Positions 46,901-52,900 of a stretch of DNA of 64,000 nucleotides are shown piece by piece. Source of the stretch: Mytilus edulis (taxonomy: Eukaryota). The stretch's first letter is position 1; every line of letters starts with the position of its first letter. The DNA lies in assembly GCF_963676685.1 (NCBI RefSeq), contig NC_092347.1:91760001-91824000 (forward strand), read 5' to 3'. The position numbers are program-made.

Positions 46901-49900
46901 TTGGTTGCTGTCTTACATATTTGCACTTCTTTTATCAGTCAGGGGACTTACTTAAACAAGTGATTTTCTAAATCACTGATTCAAGTAACATTATTTCCAT
47001 AAAAGTTGGAAGTTAGAGTTGTCTTTCTTTAATAATCACCTATTTAAGTAGTACAAATTAATCACTAGAAGAAGTGATTTAATATTAGTGTAGCTTTAAA
47101 TATAGAATACTAATGATCCAGGGACTAATTATGTTTCTAAACTTATCAGAACCAACATCTGTGTTGTCTAGGATGACCAGGTCATTTCAGGTGATGACCT
47201 TGTACTGAATCTAGGATAATGACATAAAAATCACTTGTTTAAGTATCAGACCCCAATTTCCTTCCCAAAAAGCACTTCTTTAAGTACATTCTTTAATAAC
47301 CCCAACTAATTTCAACACCCCCGAACAGTGAAATTTTTATCACGAACAGTAGAATTTTATTACATAATCTAAAAGATGAAACCTTGAACTTCACAGGAAA
47401 AATACTCCCACTGCTGTGAAAAATCTTTTAAGAAAGTATCAGCTCATTATGTAAAGCCATTATTATAGCATTTTTTCAACTAAAATAGAGTTTTCAGGTA
47501 AATGATAGCATCAAAGGCACAAACCTTGCTACTTAAAAGAAGCAAAAAGTTCATATTTTTTAATTTTACTAATTAAAAGATGTTATTTAATAATACTTTT
47601 AGATATTTGGATGATATTTTGGCTCTCAATAATGACGACTTCAGTATGTATATTAATGAAATTTTTCCTGTTGAACTTACTTTAAATAAAGCTAATACTA
47701 ACAATGACCACTGCCCTTTTCTCGATCTTGATATCTATATCACTAATGGAAAGCTGAATACTAAAATTTATGATAAAAAGGGATGATTTTTCATTTCCGA
47801 TCGTTAATTATCCGTTTTTAGATGGTGACGTTCCCTTGTCACCATCTTACGGTGTTTATATATCTCAACTTGTACGATTCGCTCGTGTATGTAACAATGT
47901 TTTAGATTTTAACGAGAGAAATTTATGTATTACTGAAAAATTATTACACCAGGGTTTTCGATATCACAAACTAGTCAAAACATTTACTAAATTTTATCAT
48001 CGGTATAAAGACATCATTCGTAAATATAGCTCAACATGCAGACTTCTAATACGTTCAGGTATTTCACATCCAATTTTTTATGGAAATATTCTTTATAAAG
48101 CACAAAGGTGTCAGTATTCACATCAGAAACTTACAAAACCTTTGAATAGACTTATTAAGAAGGGATATAATTACGATACTGTTGTCAAGTCATTAAAGAT
48201 TGCATATTTTGGCGTTAATATTGAGTCACTGATAAGGTCTTTGCATCGGAACTAAACACATTTATTCTAAAAACAGTTGTTGGCATGACACGGGTTATGT
48301 TCTTCTCATATATGTTATGATGGTATGATACTAAACCCCTAACGGGAAGGATTGTGCCTGATGTTCATATGATGAAATCATAATCTTTCAGTCAGTTTAA
48401 TTGAAGTCTGGAGCTGGCATGTCAGTTAACTGCTAGTAGTCTGTTGTTATTTATGTATTATTGTCATTTTGTTTATTTTCTTTGGTTACATCTTCTGACA
48501 TCAGACTCTGACTTCTCTTGAACTGAATTTTAATGTGCGTACTGTTATGCGTTTACTTTTCTACATTGGTTAGAGGTATAGGGGGAGGGTTGAGATCTCA
48601 CAAACATGTTTAACCCCGCCGCATTTTTGCGCCTGTCCCAAGTCAGGAGCCTCTGGCCTTTGTTAGTCTTGTATTATTTTAATTTTAGTTTCTTGTGTAC
48701 AATTTGGAAATTAGTATGGCGTTCATTATCACTGGACTAGTATATATTTGTTTAGGGGCCTGCTGAAGGACGCCTCCGGGTGCGGGAATTTCTCGCTACA
48801 TTGAAGACCTGTTGGTGACCCTCTGCTGTTGTTTTTTATTTGGTCGGGTTGTTGTCTCTTTGACACATTCCCCATTTCCATTCTCAATTTTATTTAAACC
48901 TATGTGTTTAAAATTTTGAAAAAACTACAAAATCCCAATTTGTGACAAAACCTCGAATTTGCTATTCAAATAAGTGATTTAAAAATCACTTATTTCAGTA
49001 CGGTAAGTCCCCTGACTGTTTAATGTTTTAGTTAGTTGATTTTTCTTGTTATTTATGTTTGTCTTTGGCCTGCTAGATCCTATTGCAGCTTAGTATATTG
49101 GTTTTACTCATTGTTTAAGGCAGCACAGTAACCTACTACTTCTTGAGATCATACCAATCAGTCTCTGGTAGAAATTAATACTGCATTTTTTTTTTTTATT
49201 TCAGTTCCCATATAAATTGCTATTCTTTTTTTAATAATGAAAATCATCTGTGAAATCTTTACTGGATCAATATGTTTTCTAATTATCTTTTGTAGTACAC
49301 ACAGAACAATAGATAATGAAATGTTTTTAAAGATGTTCAAAATTTAAAAAAAAAAAGCTTTTCAGAAATGTTATAGAACCAGTTCTAACCTTGATTGATG
49401 TAGTCTCTGTTAACTTCTCTCCGTCTTCTCTTTGATGGAGCAGGATTATTTGTATTGTTTGTCGATGCACCATCTAAAATAGCCTGGTGATGTCTCAGCA
49501 CCAAAGCTGTTCTTGACCAAGATGGCTGCTCACATTCCCACGTATCCATTCTGTAAAAGGACAATTTTATAAATAGAAAAGAATTTTACTGGTAAAAATA
49601 ACCTTTCTGTTTGAAATTTTACTTATTTTTTTCAAAAATTGCCTGCTTATTTTTTACTTTTAAAATTTAGTTATGTTAATGACTATTGTACATTGTTTTA
49701 TAGATTAAATCAGCTTTTTAGAGAAGTGAACGCATTATTTCAACTTATTTTTTTTAAATAAATCATCCTTCAATAGTTATTTATCCTGTACATGTATCAA
49801 CATCATGTGTGCCTTCTACTTGATAATTACCTTATCCAATCACTGGACGTCAATGCTTCTCTCAGCATGTTACACCTATGTTTAGCTGGCTGTAAATCCT

Positions 49901-52900
49901 ACATAGGGAATAAACAGGATTAGTAACTCAAAGAACACAAGCATTATCAATACACAGATGTTTATTATAGATGTCTTTCCTTGTGTCTATTAGAGATTTC
50001 TGTCTCTGTGTCAATTGTAGATGCATATCTCAAAATATAGTATCAGTGTCTATTGTAGATGTCTGTCCTGAGTGTTCACATTTTGTTCATAATGAAATGT
50101 TCATCCCTGTTACACTCAATTACACAAATTTTCATTGACAGTGTATCAATGATTAGCTGCAGAACCATAGCTCTTAGGTCCTTATGTTAATTTATTTTAC
50201 TATTTGCAGACCATGGTACTCAAAATCAATTGGTATAAAAAGGACCATAGGAGTTACAGTTCCGCAGCTAATCAATGATCTTATAAAATGCATACTGAAA
50301 ATTCAGAGATATTGTGTGCATTATTTTTGTGAATTTTAGAATTTTTTTTAGTTTACGGGAGGTCTATTCTATTCTTTTAACCTACAGGTGTTAAAAATAT
50401 AAACATAACAAACTTTTGTACCTTCTTTTCATACTGATCACCAACAGGGGATATAACTCCACCTATCACTTTAAATCTGCCTGTTCTATTCATAGAATCT
50501 CTTGCCAGCTCTGGAAAATACAAATGTTTGCATCTTTAATTTGAATATAAATATATTTTCAGATATTACTACATCACATTCCTAAGACATTTTTTTAATC
50601 ATTGTAATATATGACTCACAAACTTCTCTTTGAGATGTCATATATACATGTATAAAAACCATTAAACATATTTGCAGCAATGGTTAGAAAAAGTATCTGA
50701 TTTATGCAATTTGTCATGTACATTTGTATTTTATTGTTCTATTGCCAACCAATTGCTTATATTAATGCAAATTGTTGAATATACAATGAATGATCCACTT
50801 CATGTAAGTTTATCATGTCATGGAGTTATATAACATGTATAACACAAGAAATGTATCTTATATGTTCATGATGTTCATGAATACTAGTACTATGCAACAC
50901 AACTATTTCTGAAATAAATTCTTTTTACACCATATCTTATTAAGCAAAGAAGCAAATTGCTACAACTTATGTTACAACATCCTTAATAATTCAGTTATTC
51001 TATTAAAATAAACTTTATCTTTAAATTTGCAATTGTATCGAAAGATAACAGAAAATTAAACAAAACATGATAAGATATTTTTAACATGTTCAATGGATGT
51101 TTTTATTACAAAGCATTAAGAAATTAATCAGTCTACTGAGATAAAATTGAGAATGGAAATAGGGAATGTGTCAAAGAGACAACAACCCGACCAAATAAAA
51201 AACAACAGCAGAGGGTCACCAACAGGTCTTCAATGTAGTGAGAAATTCCCGCACCCGGAGGCGTCCTTAAGCTGGCCACTAAACAAATATATACTAGTCC
51301 AGTGATAATGAACGCCATACTAATTTCCAAATTGTACACAAGAAACTAAAATTAAAATAATACAAGACTAACAAAGGCCAGAGGCTCCTGACTTGGGACA
51401 GGCGCAAAAATGCGGCGGGGTTAAACATGTTTGTGAGATCTCAACCCTCCCCCTATACCTCTAACCAATGTAGAAAAGTAAACGCATAACAATACGCACA
51501 TTAAAATTCAGTTCAAGAGAAGTCAGAGTCTGATGTCAGAAGATGTAACCAAAGAAAATAAACAAAATGACAATAATACATAAATAACAACAGACTACTA
51601 GCAGTTAACTGACATGCCAGCTCCAGACTTCAATTAAACTGACTGAAAGATTATGATTTCATCATATGAACATCAGGCATAATCCTTCCCGTTAGGGGTT
51701 TAGTATCATACCATCATAAAATATATGAGAAGAACATAACCCGTGTCATGCCAACAACTGTTTTTAGAATAAATGTGTTTAGTTCTGTATATAATATAAT
51801 ATTGCCTTCCATTACTAGTTACAACCAGTTGCTTCGCAGGGCGCAGCATTATACGACCGCAGAGGTTGAACCCTGAACGGTTGGGGCAAGTATGGACACA
51901 ACATTCAAGCTGGATTCAGCTCTAAATTTGGATTGTGATTAAATAGTTGACACAGCATAGGTTTCTGACACAGAATGAATGTGGTCTAATGAACTTAAAC
52001 AAAAAATTTTGCCTTTGAGCAATTCACTATGCTGTTGAATATTAATCCTCTCAAAAAAATGTTTGAAGAAATTTTCTTTTTATTTATGAAATCTGAAATG
52101 AAAAAAATTGACCCCCCAATTTTTTTTTCACATCCCCCTTTCCCTTATTTCAAAACTGATCTCAATTCAAATTTCTAATGAAGTTTGCAACAATAACTAA
52201 AATGTACTCATTTAAATACATCATAAAATATTAAAATGTAAAAAAAGTGCTTGTTATAACTGAATGGTAAAGATTGTTTTAATCTATCAGTTGGTAGTAA
52301 AAGTGAATATACATTGTATATTGTATAAAACAATGATTTAAGTTGATTCAACTACTATTCTGGACAAAGAAAGATAACTCCAATTGAAATCCAATTGGAA
52401 TTTCTTGCTATTGCACAATATTGTGCAATTAGATATTTCTTGCTATTGTGCAATACTGTGCAATTGAAAATATTTGCTATTGCACAATACTGTGCAATTG
52501 AAGATTTCTTGCTATTGCACAATACTTAATATAATAATTTTGGATCCTGATTTGGACCAACTTGAAAACTGGGCCCATAATCAAAAATCTAAGTACATGT
52601 TTAGATTCAGCATATCAAAGAGGCCCAAGAATTCAATTTTTGTTAAAATCAAACTTAGTTTAATTTTGGACCCTTTGGACTTTAATGTAGACCAATTTTA
52701 AAACCGGACCAACAATTAAGAATCTACATACACAGTTAGATTTGGCATATCAAAGAACCCCAATTATTCAATTTTTGATGAAATCAAACAAAGTTTAATT
52801 TTGGACCCCGATTTGGACCAACTTGAAAACTGGGCCAATAATCAAAAATCTAAGTACATTTTTAGATTCAGCATATCAAAGAACCCCAAGGATTCAATTT

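What the first reader, a model, noticed from the sequence alone, without database searches (positions are those of the whole stretch)
48249..51785. Two near-identical inverted 645-bp PLE ends bracket NMNAT exons 2-4, and one places a twister in sense in intron 1
Seen: 48249-48893 (intron 4) and 51141-51785 (intron 1) are inverted copies 2.25 kb apart. The enclosed exons total 318 nt and both outer introns are phase 1, so skipping them keeps the frame. Known: inverted intronic repeats promote back-splicing, exon skipping and A-to-I editing. Inference: the pre-mRNA could form a long duplex giving a 318-nt circRNA or a truncated NMNAT. The duplex would also mask the sense ribozyme, which could otherwise cut intron 1.
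Basis: partly seen in the sequence, partly recalled or inferred. Interest (0 to 1): 0.68.

Follow-up and report, generated by a model that had tools for sequence, protein, structure and literature searches.

The report
Inverted retrotransposon tails flank NMNAT exons
Two young copies of the tail of a Penelope-like retrotransposon sit in opposite directions around three exons of an NAD-synthesis gene; this is an ordinary kind of insertion that could make the RNA fold back, circularise or be cut, though none of that is shown.

Summary
48249-48893 and 51141-51785 are inverted copies: 645 nt, 8 mismatches, no indels, 2247 nt apart. They lie in introns 4 and 1 of a minus-strand NMNAT gene. Exons 2-4 are 89+68+161 = 318 nt, and both outer introns are phase 1.

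The repeat is the 3' UTR of a 5'-truncated Naiad-clade Penelope-like element. Copy A still abuts 667 nt of reverse-transcriptase ORF.

This fits the selenoprotein Naiads reported from clams (PMC8557442).

The "twister" is sub-threshold: Twister-P5 scores 23.1 bits against a cut-off of 37.6. The conserved core, P2, P4 and a 10-bp P5 are intact, but P1 is missing. It is in gene sense in intron 1, as stated.

CircRNA formation, exon skipping and editing follow a known principle and are geometrically plausible, but cannot be tested here. Masking of the ribozyme by the duplex is kinetically unlikely, because the complement is transcribed about 2.7 kb later.

Verdict: a real but ordinary TE-made inverted pair. 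The side lead is a possible first link between twister and Penelope-like elements.

The parts
48249..48893 (+). Copy A of the 645-nt repeat: the 3' UTR/tail of a Naiad-type Penelope-like element. It lies in NMNAT intron 4 and is antisense to the gene.
   Evidence: 645 nt, 8 mismatches against copy B. It is contiguous with the RT ORF that ends at 48255.
47586..48255 (+). Remnant of the element's ORF in copy A: the C-terminal 222 codons of the reverse transcriptase, with one frameshift near 47776-47780 and a TAA stop at 48253-48255.
   Evidence: tblastn with P0001: residues 214-278 match 47586-47780 and residues 277-435 match 47776-48252, at 94-97% identity; best relative P0001, 97% identity. 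Pfam finds no domain, and in particular no C-terminal GIY-YIG.
51141..51785 (-). Copy B of the 645-nt repeat, in NMNAT intron 1 and in the same sense as the gene. It is 5'-truncated 4 nt before the element's stop codon.
   Evidence: The upstream flank is unrelated to copy A's ORF.
48307..48371 (+). SECIS-like hairpin of copy A, 51 nt after the element's stop codon.
   Evidence: Rfam SECIS_1, 32.3 bits (gathering score 35), E 0.0011 in the 4.1-kb search.
51663..51727 (-). SECIS-like hairpin of copy B, in gene sense within intron 1.
   Evidence: Rfam SECIS_1, 36.8 bits (gathering score 35). It is the only match above threshold in the 64-kb window. AUGA, AAA and UGAU are all in place.
48568..48658 (+). 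Twister-like motif of copy A, type-P5 permutation. P5 is 48568-48577/48649-48658. P2 is 48581-48584/48614-48617. GAGGG is 48585-48589. UAA starts at 48611. P3 is 48621-48630. P4 is 48632-48647. The putative cut lies between 48611 and 48612.
   Evidence: Rfam Twister-P5, 23.1 bits (gathering score 37.6), E 0.0041 in 161 nt. Helices located. The core pattern gives 2 matches against 0 in 100 shuffles.
51376..51466 (-). Twister-like motif of copy B, identical in sequence to copy A's and in gene sense in intron 1. The putative cut lies between 51423 and 51422.
   Evidence: None of the 8 mismatches falls in this span. The pattern matches at 51392-51449 on the minus strand.
55699..55777 (-). NMNAT exon 1 coding part (ATG at 55777-55775; phase-1 donor).
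   Evidence: The peptide carries the N-terminal nucleotidyltransferase motif. Pfam CTP_transf_like gives E 0.027, below the cut-off.
50422..50510 (-). NMNAT exon 2 (89 nt).
   Evidence: Matches human NMNAT1 residues 30-58, E 9.6e-07.
49831..49898 (-). NMNAT exon 3 (68 nt).
   Evidence: AG/GT sites and an open frame. The 22-residue peptide gives no Pfam hit. It is assigned by position and by my own comparison with the NMNAT1 sequence seen in the alignment.
49390..49550 (-). NMNAT exon 4 (161 nt; phase-1 donor).
   Evidence: Matches human NMNAT1 residues 82-122, E 4.6e-05.
46623..46744 (-). NMNAT exon 5 (122 nt): the acceptor that would be used if exons 2-4 were skipped.
   Evidence: The peptide contains LLCGADLLESF.

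Best explanation
Two recent, independent, 5'-truncated insertions of one Naiad-clade Penelope-like retrotransposon family landed in opposite orientation in introns 4 and 1 of an NMNAT gene. Each brings the element's 645-nt 3' UTR. That UTR carries a SECIS hairpin just after the stop codon, the mark of a selenoprotein-coding Naiad, and about 250 nt further on a twister-like motif.

As a by-product, the pre-mRNA holds a near-perfect 645-bp reverse-complementary pair 630 nt upstream of exon 2 and 496 nt downstream of exon 4.

Shown: the repeats, their identity as a Naiad 3' UTR, the gene model, and the geometry.

Inferred, with my odds:
- In a fraction of transcripts the arms pair. This would give an ADAR substrate and favour back-splicing of exons 2-4 into a 318-nt circle and/or skipping of these exons. 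I put about 0.4 on any of these being detectable in carriers.
- I put less than 0.1 on this having been selected for.
- The twister-like motif descends from a real twister (about 0.6) and still self-cleaves (about 0.35).
- The duplex masks it (about 0.1).
For: Repeat.

Element identity:
- Copy A is contiguous with an ORF whose last 222 codons are 94-97% identical to P0001.
- Relatives P0005 and P0006 (76-80% identical) carry the GxKF/Y and DKA motifs.
- The longer relatives P0125, P0129 and P0131 have, in order, an N-terminal GIY-YIG, CxC, GxKF/Y, DKA and a C-terminal RT. PMC8557442 gives these as diagnostic of Naiads (section 6 read).
- The window ORF aligns to the C-terminus of P0129 (51% identity over 84 aa, E 4e-29).
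- No hammerhead is listed at E up to 10, as reported for Naiads.

SECIS:
- It is the one Rfam match above threshold in the window, 51 nt after the stop codon.
- Clam Naiads are reported to have a SECIS 1-21 bp after the stop (PMC8557442, section 8).

Twister:
- The Rfam alignment keeps GAGGG, UAA, GC and GUCCCAAG. All 4 P2 pairs and P4 are Watson-Crick.
- P5 has 10 bp.
- The core pattern gives 2 matches against 0 in 100 shuffles.
- Ten relatives were aligned out of the 11 found through their accidental translations. P0146, an 838-aa protein matched in 5 stretches, was left out. The 17 residues encoded by the motif's 3' half are identical in 137 of 165 aligned cells. The 26 residues downstream are identical in 133 of 222.

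Duplex:
- Predicted energy is -1180.7 kcal/mol with 639 pairs and perfect runs of up to 213 bp.
- No rival inverted repeat longer than 49 nt exists in 44000-56000 (13 pairs listed).

Principle: young intronic TEs provide the reverse-complementary sequences for back-splicing (PMC8516420, passages).
Against: - No RNA data exist for any RNA-level effect.
- Pairing must compete with co-transcriptional removal of intron 1. Its acceptor is made about 1.6 kb before arm A.
- The twister score is 14.5 bits below Rfam's cut-off. The model skipped P1 through a local end.
- The minimum-free-energy fold prefers an alternative GGGUUGAG/UUUAACCC pairing. It scores -35.8 kcal/mol, against -29.4 for the twister-compatible nested fold. 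The z-score is only -1.91, and 8 of 200 shuffles fold as well.
- Both genomic copies contain sequence on both sides of the putative cut. The RNAs that were reverse-transcribed were therefore not cut there.
- 4 of 10 relatives differ at the residue encoded by the loop's CAA, and 4 of 10 at the next residue.
- SECIS: copy A scores below the cut-off (32.3 bits). A plain AUGA..AAA..UGAU pattern is not enriched (52 found, 49.7 expected).
- The close relatives P0005 and P0006 read Cys, not a stop, eight residues after DKA. That is one of the positions recoded in the published clam Naiads.
- Pfam recognises no RT in 10 of 10 closer relatives at E up to 0.01.
- GIY-YIG passes its cut-off in only 1 of the 3 long relatives that show it.
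Confidence: 0.72

Rival explanations
1. Inert passengers. The two insertions are real, but they have no measurable effect on NMNAT RNA. Introns 1 and 4 are spliced co-transcriptionally before the arms meet, and the twister-like motif is a dead relic.
For: - The twister is sub-threshold and lacks P1.
- The arms are separated by 2247 nt that contain three exons with canonical splice sites.
- Inverted TE pairs in introns are common, and most give no abundant circle (general knowledge).
- Both copies are young, with 8 differences in 645 nt. There has been little time for selection to act.
Against: - A 645-bp duplex at -1180.7 kcal/mol is far longer than the repeats known to suffice for circularisation. 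I recall 30-40 nt from minigene work; this was not checked here.
- No competing repeat lies within either intron.
Confidence: 0.45
2. The duplex drives a 318-nt circRNA or a truncated NMNAT, and at the same time it protects intron 1 from an active sense twister.
For: - The geometry and the reading frame are as stated.
- The twister core is intact and in gene sense in copy B.
Against: - The motif spans 51466-51376 and can fold as soon as it is made. Its complement at 48658-48568 is transcribed about 2.7 kb later.
- Twisters are credited with rates near 1000 per minute under physiological conditions (PMC6154101, passages).
- Masking would need a very slow ribozyme.
Confidence: 0.08
3. Cut-and-circle. 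An active twister in copy B severs exon 1 from the rest of the transcript. The downstream piece keeps 282 nt of arm B (51141-51422), which can still pair with 48612-48893. With the exon-1 donor gone, the exon-2 acceptor is left to the exon-4 donor. Cleavage and pairing would then cooperate to favour the circle.
For: Only the positions support this. The putative cut at 51423/51422 leaves 282 complementary nt on the exon-2 side. The longest perfect run of 213 bp lies in this part.
Against: - This is pure inference.
- Ribozyme activity is unproven.
- Exons can stay tethered to the polymerase after an intron is cut. This is recalled from published work; the search listing did not hold that paper.
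Confidence: 0.05
4. Assembly artefact. One copy was placed wrongly, since Penelope-like elements are known to confuse assemblies.
For: - PMC8557442 (section 6) says that complex PLE insertions cause assembly problems.
- An N gap lies at 58187-58426.
Against: - The copies differ at 8 sites.
- Each copy has unique flanks.
- Only copy A continues into the ORF.
- Exons 2-4 lie between the copies in the right order and strand.
- The gap is 6.4 kb away.
Confidence: 0.04

Closest known systems
Selenoprotein-coding Naiad elements of clams (Naiad_Scon, Naiad_Mmer; Craig et al. 2021, PMC8557442)
   Same: - A PLE-type RT sits at the C-terminus of the ORF.
- Relatives carry the DKA and GxKF/Y motifs and an N-terminal GIY-YIG.
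- Copies are 5'-truncated.
- No hammerhead is present.
- A SECIS lies shortly after a TAA stop.
   Different: - The SECIS lies 51 nt after the stop, not 1-21.
- In-frame UGA codons cannot be checked, because both copies lack that part of the ORF.
- Close relatives read Cys at the DKA+8 position.
- I could not compare with the published consensus sequences, because supplements are closed.
- The paper does not mention twister (0 occurrences).
Hammerhead ribozymes in the pseudo-LTRs of canonical Penelope-like elements (Cervera and de la Pena 2014, as described in PMC6765202, passages)
   Same: A small self-cleaving-type motif sits in the non-coding terminal region of a PLE. In a tandem copy that region would also lie upstream of the ORF.
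   Different: The ribozyme class differs (twister-like, not hammerhead). Activity is untested, and no tandem arrangement is seen in this window.
Twister variants at the 5' end of RTE-type non-LTR retrotransposons (Perere-3 of Schistosoma mansoni, PMC8501958 abstract and introduction; RTE superfamily note in PMC7761336, passage)
   Same: A twister-class motif carried by a retrotransposon.
   Different: In those elements the ribozyme marks the exact 5' end, and the target-site duplication supplies P1. Here the motif is a type-P5 permutation in the middle of a 3' UTR, without P1, in a different class of retroelement.
Inverted Alu/SINE pairs flanking circularised exons in mammals (PMC8516420, passages)
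   Same: Young TEs of one family lie in opposite orientation in the two introns that flank internal exons. There is strong predicted pairing and there are no competing repeats.
   Different: The arms are 645 bp of PLE UTR rather than about 300 bp of SINE. The host is an invertebrate, and no circRNA has been observed.
Intronic sense-strand ribozymes in animal genes (intronic hammerheads of amniotes, cited in PMC7229834; CPEB3 ribozyme, title in the listing)
   Same: A self-cleaving-type motif in the sense strand of an intron of a protein-coding gene.
   Different: Those ribozymes are conserved across species at one locus. This one is a passenger of a recent TE copy.

Membership tests
Naiad clade of Penelope-like elements | RT at the C-terminus of the single ORF, with no C-terminal GIY-YIG endonuclease | tested here: met
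   The ORF ends at 48255 with RT/thumb-like sequence. Pfam finds no GIY-YIG in the last 165 aa. The ORF aligns to the C-terminal end of P0129.
Naiad clade of Penelope-like elements | N-terminal GIY-YIG endonuclease followed by the CxC motif | tested here: inconclusive
   Both window copies lack this part. Distant relatives P0125, P0129 and P0131 (39% identical to P0005 over 522 aa) have an N-terminal GIY-YIG at 19.8, 21.7 and 23.7 bits (cut-off 22.6) and a CEC/CDC motif. The closest relatives (P0001, P0005, P0006) stop short of it.
Naiad clade of Penelope-like elements | DKG motif changed to DKA; GxKF/Y motif | tested here: met
   This is seen in relatives, not in the window. P0005 and P0006 have VPADKAANN and GPKY. 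P0125, P0129 and P0131 have the same motifs. The criterion comes from PMC8557442, section 6.
Naiad clade of Penelope-like elements | No canonical hammerhead ribozyme | tested here: met
   No hammerhead family appears among the 6 matches at E up to 10 in 48000-52100.
Selenoprotein-coding Naiads | SECIS element in the 3' UTR close to the stop codon | tested here: met
   SECIS_1 scores 36.8 bits (cut-off 35) in copy B and 32.3 bits in copy A, 51 nt after the TAA.
Selenoprotein-coding Naiads | In-frame UGA at conserved cysteines (before GIY-YIG, in CCHH, 8 aa after DKA) | not testable with these tools
   The region is absent from both copies, and no eukaryotic DNA collection is open. Relatives P0005 and P0006 read Cys at DKA+8. 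That the predicted proteins start just before GxKF/Y would fit an upstream UGA or a frameshift equally well.
Twister ribozyme (Rfam RF02684, type P5) | Covariance-model score at or above the gathering score | tested here: not met
   The score is 23.1 bits against 37.6. The motif is not listed in the whole-window or the 4.1-kb searches.
Twister ribozyme (Rfam RF02684, type P5) | Conserved core nucleotides and helices P2 and P4; complementarity for pseudoknots T1 and T2 | tested here: met
   GAGGG, UAA, GC and GUCCCAAG are identical to the consensus. The 4 P2 pairs and 4 P4 pairs are Watson-Crick. From my own reading of the sequence, the loop CCC can pair with the GGG of GAGGG, and the loop GU with GC (one wobble). 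The 4-nt linker of the model is replaced by a 12-nt insert that forms a 3-bp hairpin where P3 sits.
Twister ribozyme (Rfam RF02684, type P5) | P1 helix next to the cleavage site | tested here: not met
   The model left P1 through a local end. I found no stable pairing in the 21 nt between GAGGG and UAA. According to PMC6154101 (passage), mutations in P1 reduce activity.
Twister ribozyme (Rfam RF02684, type P5) | Site-specific self-cleavage at the U-A step | not testable with these tools
   This needs a transcription and cleavage assay.
Inverted-repeat-driven exonic circRNA locus | Reverse-complementary sequences in both introns flanking exons with canonical splice sites | tested here: met
Inverted-repeat-driven exonic circRNA locus | Back-splice junction in RNA | not testable with these tools
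   No transcript data are available.

The most novel reading that the evidence does not exclude
Naiad-type Penelope-like elements are reported to lack the hammerhead that other PLEs carry. At least in this bivalve-like family they may carry a type-P5 twister ribozyme in the 3' UTR/pseudo-LTR instead, next to a SECIS. That would be the first twister-PLE link. It would also be a second independent recruitment of twister by retroelements, after the RTE type. Here one copy puts that ribozyme in sense inside intron 1 of an NAD-synthesis gene, where cleavage plus the remaining 282-bp pairing could steer exons 2-4 into a circle.
Probability: 0.25. Interest if true: 0.65.

Novelty: new member of a known kind. 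Interest (0 to 1): 0.4.

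Why it matters
As found, this is one more case of young transposons building a reverse-complementary pair around internal exons. It is useful as a clean natural test locus, for five reasons:
- It has one single pair of arms.
- No competing repeats are present.
- The exon block preserves the reading frame.
- The gene is an essential-pathway gene.
- Both insertions are probably still polymorphic.

The wider interest lies in the element. It extends the selenoprotein-type Naiad signature (a SECIS right after the stop) to another family. 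It also raises the testable idea that Naiads replaced the PLE hammerhead with a twister. If that were confirmed across copies and by cleavage assays, it would bear on why PLEs need a ribozyme at all. It would also add thousands of eukaryotic twisters with a known context.

Tried and rejected
1. Whole-window Rfam search at gathering scores and a 4.1-kb E-value search listed no twister or other ribozyme. Only the 161-nt search did.
2. Pfam on the ORF next to copy A, on the 69-aa upstream piece and on 10 relatives gave no RT or endonuclease domain. Identity had to come from relatives and from motifs named in the literature.
3. The Atlas look-up of P0005 gave only 'hypothetical protein' clusters (HTH_animal, RVT_1 in 16%, DUF8422). 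This is a weak lead.
4. I looked for a second, independent Naiad 3' UTR behind the old RT remnant at 8688-8855. Neither SECIS nor twister turned up in 8850-9950.
5. A plain SECIS sequence pattern is uninformative in this AT-rich DNA (52 found against 49.7 expected).
6. I saw no target-site duplication at either copy when reading the flanks. Only a TA-rich 16-mer abuts copy B.
7. No poly(A) hexamer occurs in copy B in gene sense. I therefore dropped premature polyadenylation by the sense copy.
8. A single complex PLE insertion (tandem or inverted) as the origin of the pair is rejected, because conserved exons 2-4 lie between the arms.
9. The literature search was badly set (any 2 of 6 terms) and returned unrelated papers. 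One search replaced it.
10. The original twister paper (Roth et al. 2014) is not held. What I say of it comes from reviews or from recall.
11. Covariation analysis of the motif was not possible. Only two identical copies are at hand, and no eukaryotic DNA collection is open.

Full report
**Observation**

The inverted repeat is real and exact. The repeat finder gives arms 48249-48893 and 51141-51785: 645 nt, 99% complementary, 2247 nt apart. A base-by-base comparison gives 8 mismatches of 645 and no gaps, and the similarity ends abruptly on both sides.

The window contains no further full copy. There is only a 123-column alignment at 73% identity at 41782-41902, matching the 3' part of the unit. 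The window has one N run, 58187-58426, which I left alone. Nothing suggests a human origin. The DNA is 27-36% G+C and full of invertebrate-type transposons.

**The gene**

I read the splice sites from the DNA on the minus strand.
- Exon 1: ATG at 55777 and a donor after 55699 (79 coding nt, phase 1).
- Exon 2: 50510-50422 (89 nt).
- Exon 3: 49898-49831 (68 nt).
- Exon 4: 49550-49390 (161 nt, phase 1).
- Exon 5: starts at 46744.

I searched the model exon by exon and left out the joined step.
- The exon 2 peptide matches human NMNAT1 residues 30-58 (E 9.6e-07).
- The exon 4 peptide matches residues 82-122 (E 4.6e-05).
- The ORF holding exon 6 matches residues 174-207 (E 7.1e-08).
- All 3 of the 3 peptides searched had NMNAT1 as best hit.
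- Pfam on 8 exon peptides gave only one weak CTP_transf_like match, below its cut-off (exon 1, E 0.027).

Later exons are visible in the ORF list.

From reading the frames, none of exons 2-4 has an in-frame stop. The back-splice codon would be G|AG. A 318-nt circle would therefore carry an endless NMNAT-frame ORF with internal ATGs. This is a curiosity, not evidence. Skipping would remove about 106 residues of the Rossmann core, so I infer an inactive protein.

**What the repeat is**

Copy A follows directly on a plus-strand ORF (47758-48255). Pfam does not recognise it. It has 298 relatives at E up to 1e-5 among 576 candidates. The best is P0001, 97% identical.

tblastn places P0001 residues 214-278 at 47586-47780 and residues 277-435 at 47776-48252 in another frame. 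Copy A therefore keeps the last 222 codons with one frameshift.

Relatives P0005 and P0006 (76-80% identical) show GPKY, VPADKAANN and FRYLDD. A search with the N-terminal 170 residues of P0005 found 23 proteins among 90 candidates. Among them, P0125, P0129 and P0131 (949-995 aa) carry an N-terminal GIY-YIG (19.8, 21.7 and 23.7 bits; cut-off 22.6). After it come CEC/CDC, GxKF/Y, DKA and a C-terminal RT. P0005 aligns to P0129 over 522 residues at 39% identity. The window ORF aligns to the C-terminus of P0129 (E 4e-29).

Craig et al. 2021 (PMC8557442; passages and sections 6 and 8 read) name these as the marks of the Naiad clade of Penelope-like elements:
- a permuted domain order;
- CxC;
- DKG changed to DKA;
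- heavy 5' truncation;
- no canonical hammerhead.

Consistent with the last point, no hammerhead appears at E up to 10 in 48000-52100.

So "PLE ends" is right and can be sharpened. The 645 nt are the 3' UTR of a Naiad. Copy A is truncated within the RT. Copy B is truncated 4 nt before the stop codon.

The two copies must be separate insertions, because conserved exons lie between them. At 1.2% divergence both are young.

The only Rfam match above a gathering score in the whole window is SECIS_1 at 51663-51727 on the minus strand (36.8 bits, cut-off 35, E 0.00098). Its twin in copy A scores 32.3 bits. It starts 51 nt after the element's TAA.

Craig et al. report that Naiads of two clams and two spiders encode selenoproteins, with SECIS elements 1-21 bp after the stop in three of the four families (section 8). 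The position and the host type therefore fit a selenoprotein-type Naiad.

Four caveats apply.
- The recoded UGA positions lie in the part both copies have lost.
- P0005 and P0006 read Cys at the DKA+8 position.
- Copy A is below the cut-off.
- A plain sequence pattern is not enriched (52 found, 49.7 expected), so the case rests on the covariance score and the context.

**The twister**

Rfam lists Twister-P5 only when 161 nt are searched alone: 48581-48647 (+), 23.1 bits against a gathering score of 37.6, E 0.0041.

Features in favour:
- The alignment keeps GAGGG, UAA, GC and GUCCCAAG.
- All four P2 pairs and P4 are Watson-Crick.
- A 10-bp outer stem (48568-48577 with 48649-48658) closes the motif as a P5.
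- A 3-bp hairpin sits where P3 is expected.
- The core pattern occurs twice in the window, once in each copy, and in none of 100 shuffles.

Features against:
- The model skipped P1, and I find no stable P1.
- The unconstrained fold prefers another pairing. It scores -35.8 kcal/mol against -29.4 for the twister-compatible nested fold, with a z-score of -1.91.
- Both inserted copies span the putative cut, so their RNA templates were uncut there.

DNA of other copies cannot be fetched here. I therefore searched the 48-residue accidental translation of 48594-48737 against 1.84 billion representatives and found 11 hits at E up to 0.001. I aligned 10 of the 11 and left out P0146, an 838-aa protein with 5 short stretches.

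The 17 residues encoded by the motif's 3' half are identical in 137 of 165 aligned cells. The downstream 26 residues are identical in 133 of 222. The first 5 residues are identical in 20 of 41.

The segment is thus a conserved part of a widespread repeat family and not a private accident. However, the hits are anchored on the best-conserved block. The conserved block runs about 15 nt past P5. Amino-acid letters cannot show covariation. And 4 of 10 relatives differ at each of the two residues that cover the loop's CAAG.

My estimate is about 0.6 that this descends from a true twister and about 0.35 that this copy cleaves.

The orientation claim is right. The element's sense is plus in copy A and minus in copy B, and the gene is on the minus strand.

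**How it most likely works**

The pre-mRNA would hold two arms able to form 639 base pairs (-1180.7 kcal/mol), with perfect runs of 213 and 187 bp. One arm lies 630 nt before exon 2 and the other 496 nt after exon 4. Nothing else in the gene competes: of 13 inverted pairs of 25 nt or more in 44000-56000, the next longest is 49 nt.

This is the textbook layout for repeat-assisted back-splicing. Young TEs are its usual source (PMC8516420, passages). Long perfect duplexes are also ADAR substrates. That statement is general knowledge, and I did not check ADAR in this animal.

Whether the arms meet depends on a race with splicing of intron 1, and nothing here measures it.

The masking idea fares worst. 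The motif in copy B (51466-51376) is finished about 2.7 kb before its complement (48658-48568) is made. Twisters are credited with rates near 1000 per minute (PMC6154101, passages). Only a crippled ribozyme could be masked.

If the motif does cut, at 51423/51422, then 282 nt of arm B stay attached to exon 2. That piece could still pair, with the exon-1 donor gone. This cooperative route to the circle is my own speculation.

A further possible consequence at DNA level is inversion of the 2.25-kb segment by recombination between the arms.

**Comparison and novelty**

Inverted TE pairs around exons and SECIS-bearing Naiads are both known. This locus is a new member of each kind.

I found no report that links twister to Penelope-like elements.
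- 'twister' occurs 0 times in PMC8557442.
- 17 papers hold both 'twister' and 'Penelope-like'. I read passages of five of them and saw the rest only as a listing. None makes the link in what I saw.
- 3 papers hold 'twister ribozyme' and 'mollus', with no such claim in title or abstract.
- A 2026 preprint on new ribozymes has no 'Penelope'.

Twister is known in RTE-type non-LTR elements (PMC8501958 abstract and introduction; PMC7761336 passage).

Subscription papers and supplements were outside reach, so 'not in print' holds only for these searches.

**Verdict**

The thing itself is ordinary. The side lead is worth a family-wide survey and a cleavage assay.

Noticed in passing
51663-51727 (-) and 48307-48371 (+): SECIS_1 hairpin in both copies, 51 nt after the element's stop codon. 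It points to a selenoprotein-type Naiad.
   Followed up: yes
28706-29815 (+): Intronless 369-aa ORF of the rhodopsin-family GPCR type (7tm_1, E 6.4e-51).
   Followed up: no
58476-60323 (+), next to the N run at 58187-58426: 615-aa ORF with DDE_1 (E 2.5e-28) and HTH_psq domains: a pogo/Tigger-like DNA transposase. It starts 50 nt after an assembly gap.
   Followed up: no
2445-4209 (+): Three consecutive ORFs with RVT_1 pieces and a weak zf-RVT match: a degraded reverse transcriptase of another retroelement.
   Followed up: no
8688-8855 (+): An old remnant of a second Naiad-like RT (43% identical to P0001). Neither SECIS nor twister turns up in the 1.1 kb downstream.
   Followed up: partly
41782-41902 (-): A 123-column alignment at 73% identity to element positions 492-611. 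The 3' module of the Naiad UTR is shared with an older, different repeat, perhaps a non-autonomous partner.
   Followed up: partly
52392-53693 (intron 1): Three adjoining satellite arrays with periods of 35, 135/261 and 161/320 bp.
   Followed up: no
50145-50176 / 50248-50279 (intron 2): A hairpin with 32-nt arms (81% complementary, 71-nt loop), MITE-like. It gives a weak MIR7504 match of 27.4 bits against a gathering score of 83.
   Followed up: no
51788-51803 (-), abutting copy B: A TA-rich 16-mer lies directly at the 5' junction of copy B. Naiads are said to prefer (TA)n targets (PMC8557442, section 6). I saw no clear target-site duplication at either copy.
   Followed up: partly
48249-48893, read in gene sense (minus strand): In gene sense the antisense copy A offers six AATAAA/ATTAAA hexamers inside intron 4. 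Copy B in gene sense has none.
   Followed up: no
protein P0004 (relative, not in the window): This 732-aa relative reads the C-terminal RT half, then the N-terminal part, then the same C-terminal half again in one frame. A head-to-tail partial tandem of a PLE would give this pattern.
   Followed up: no
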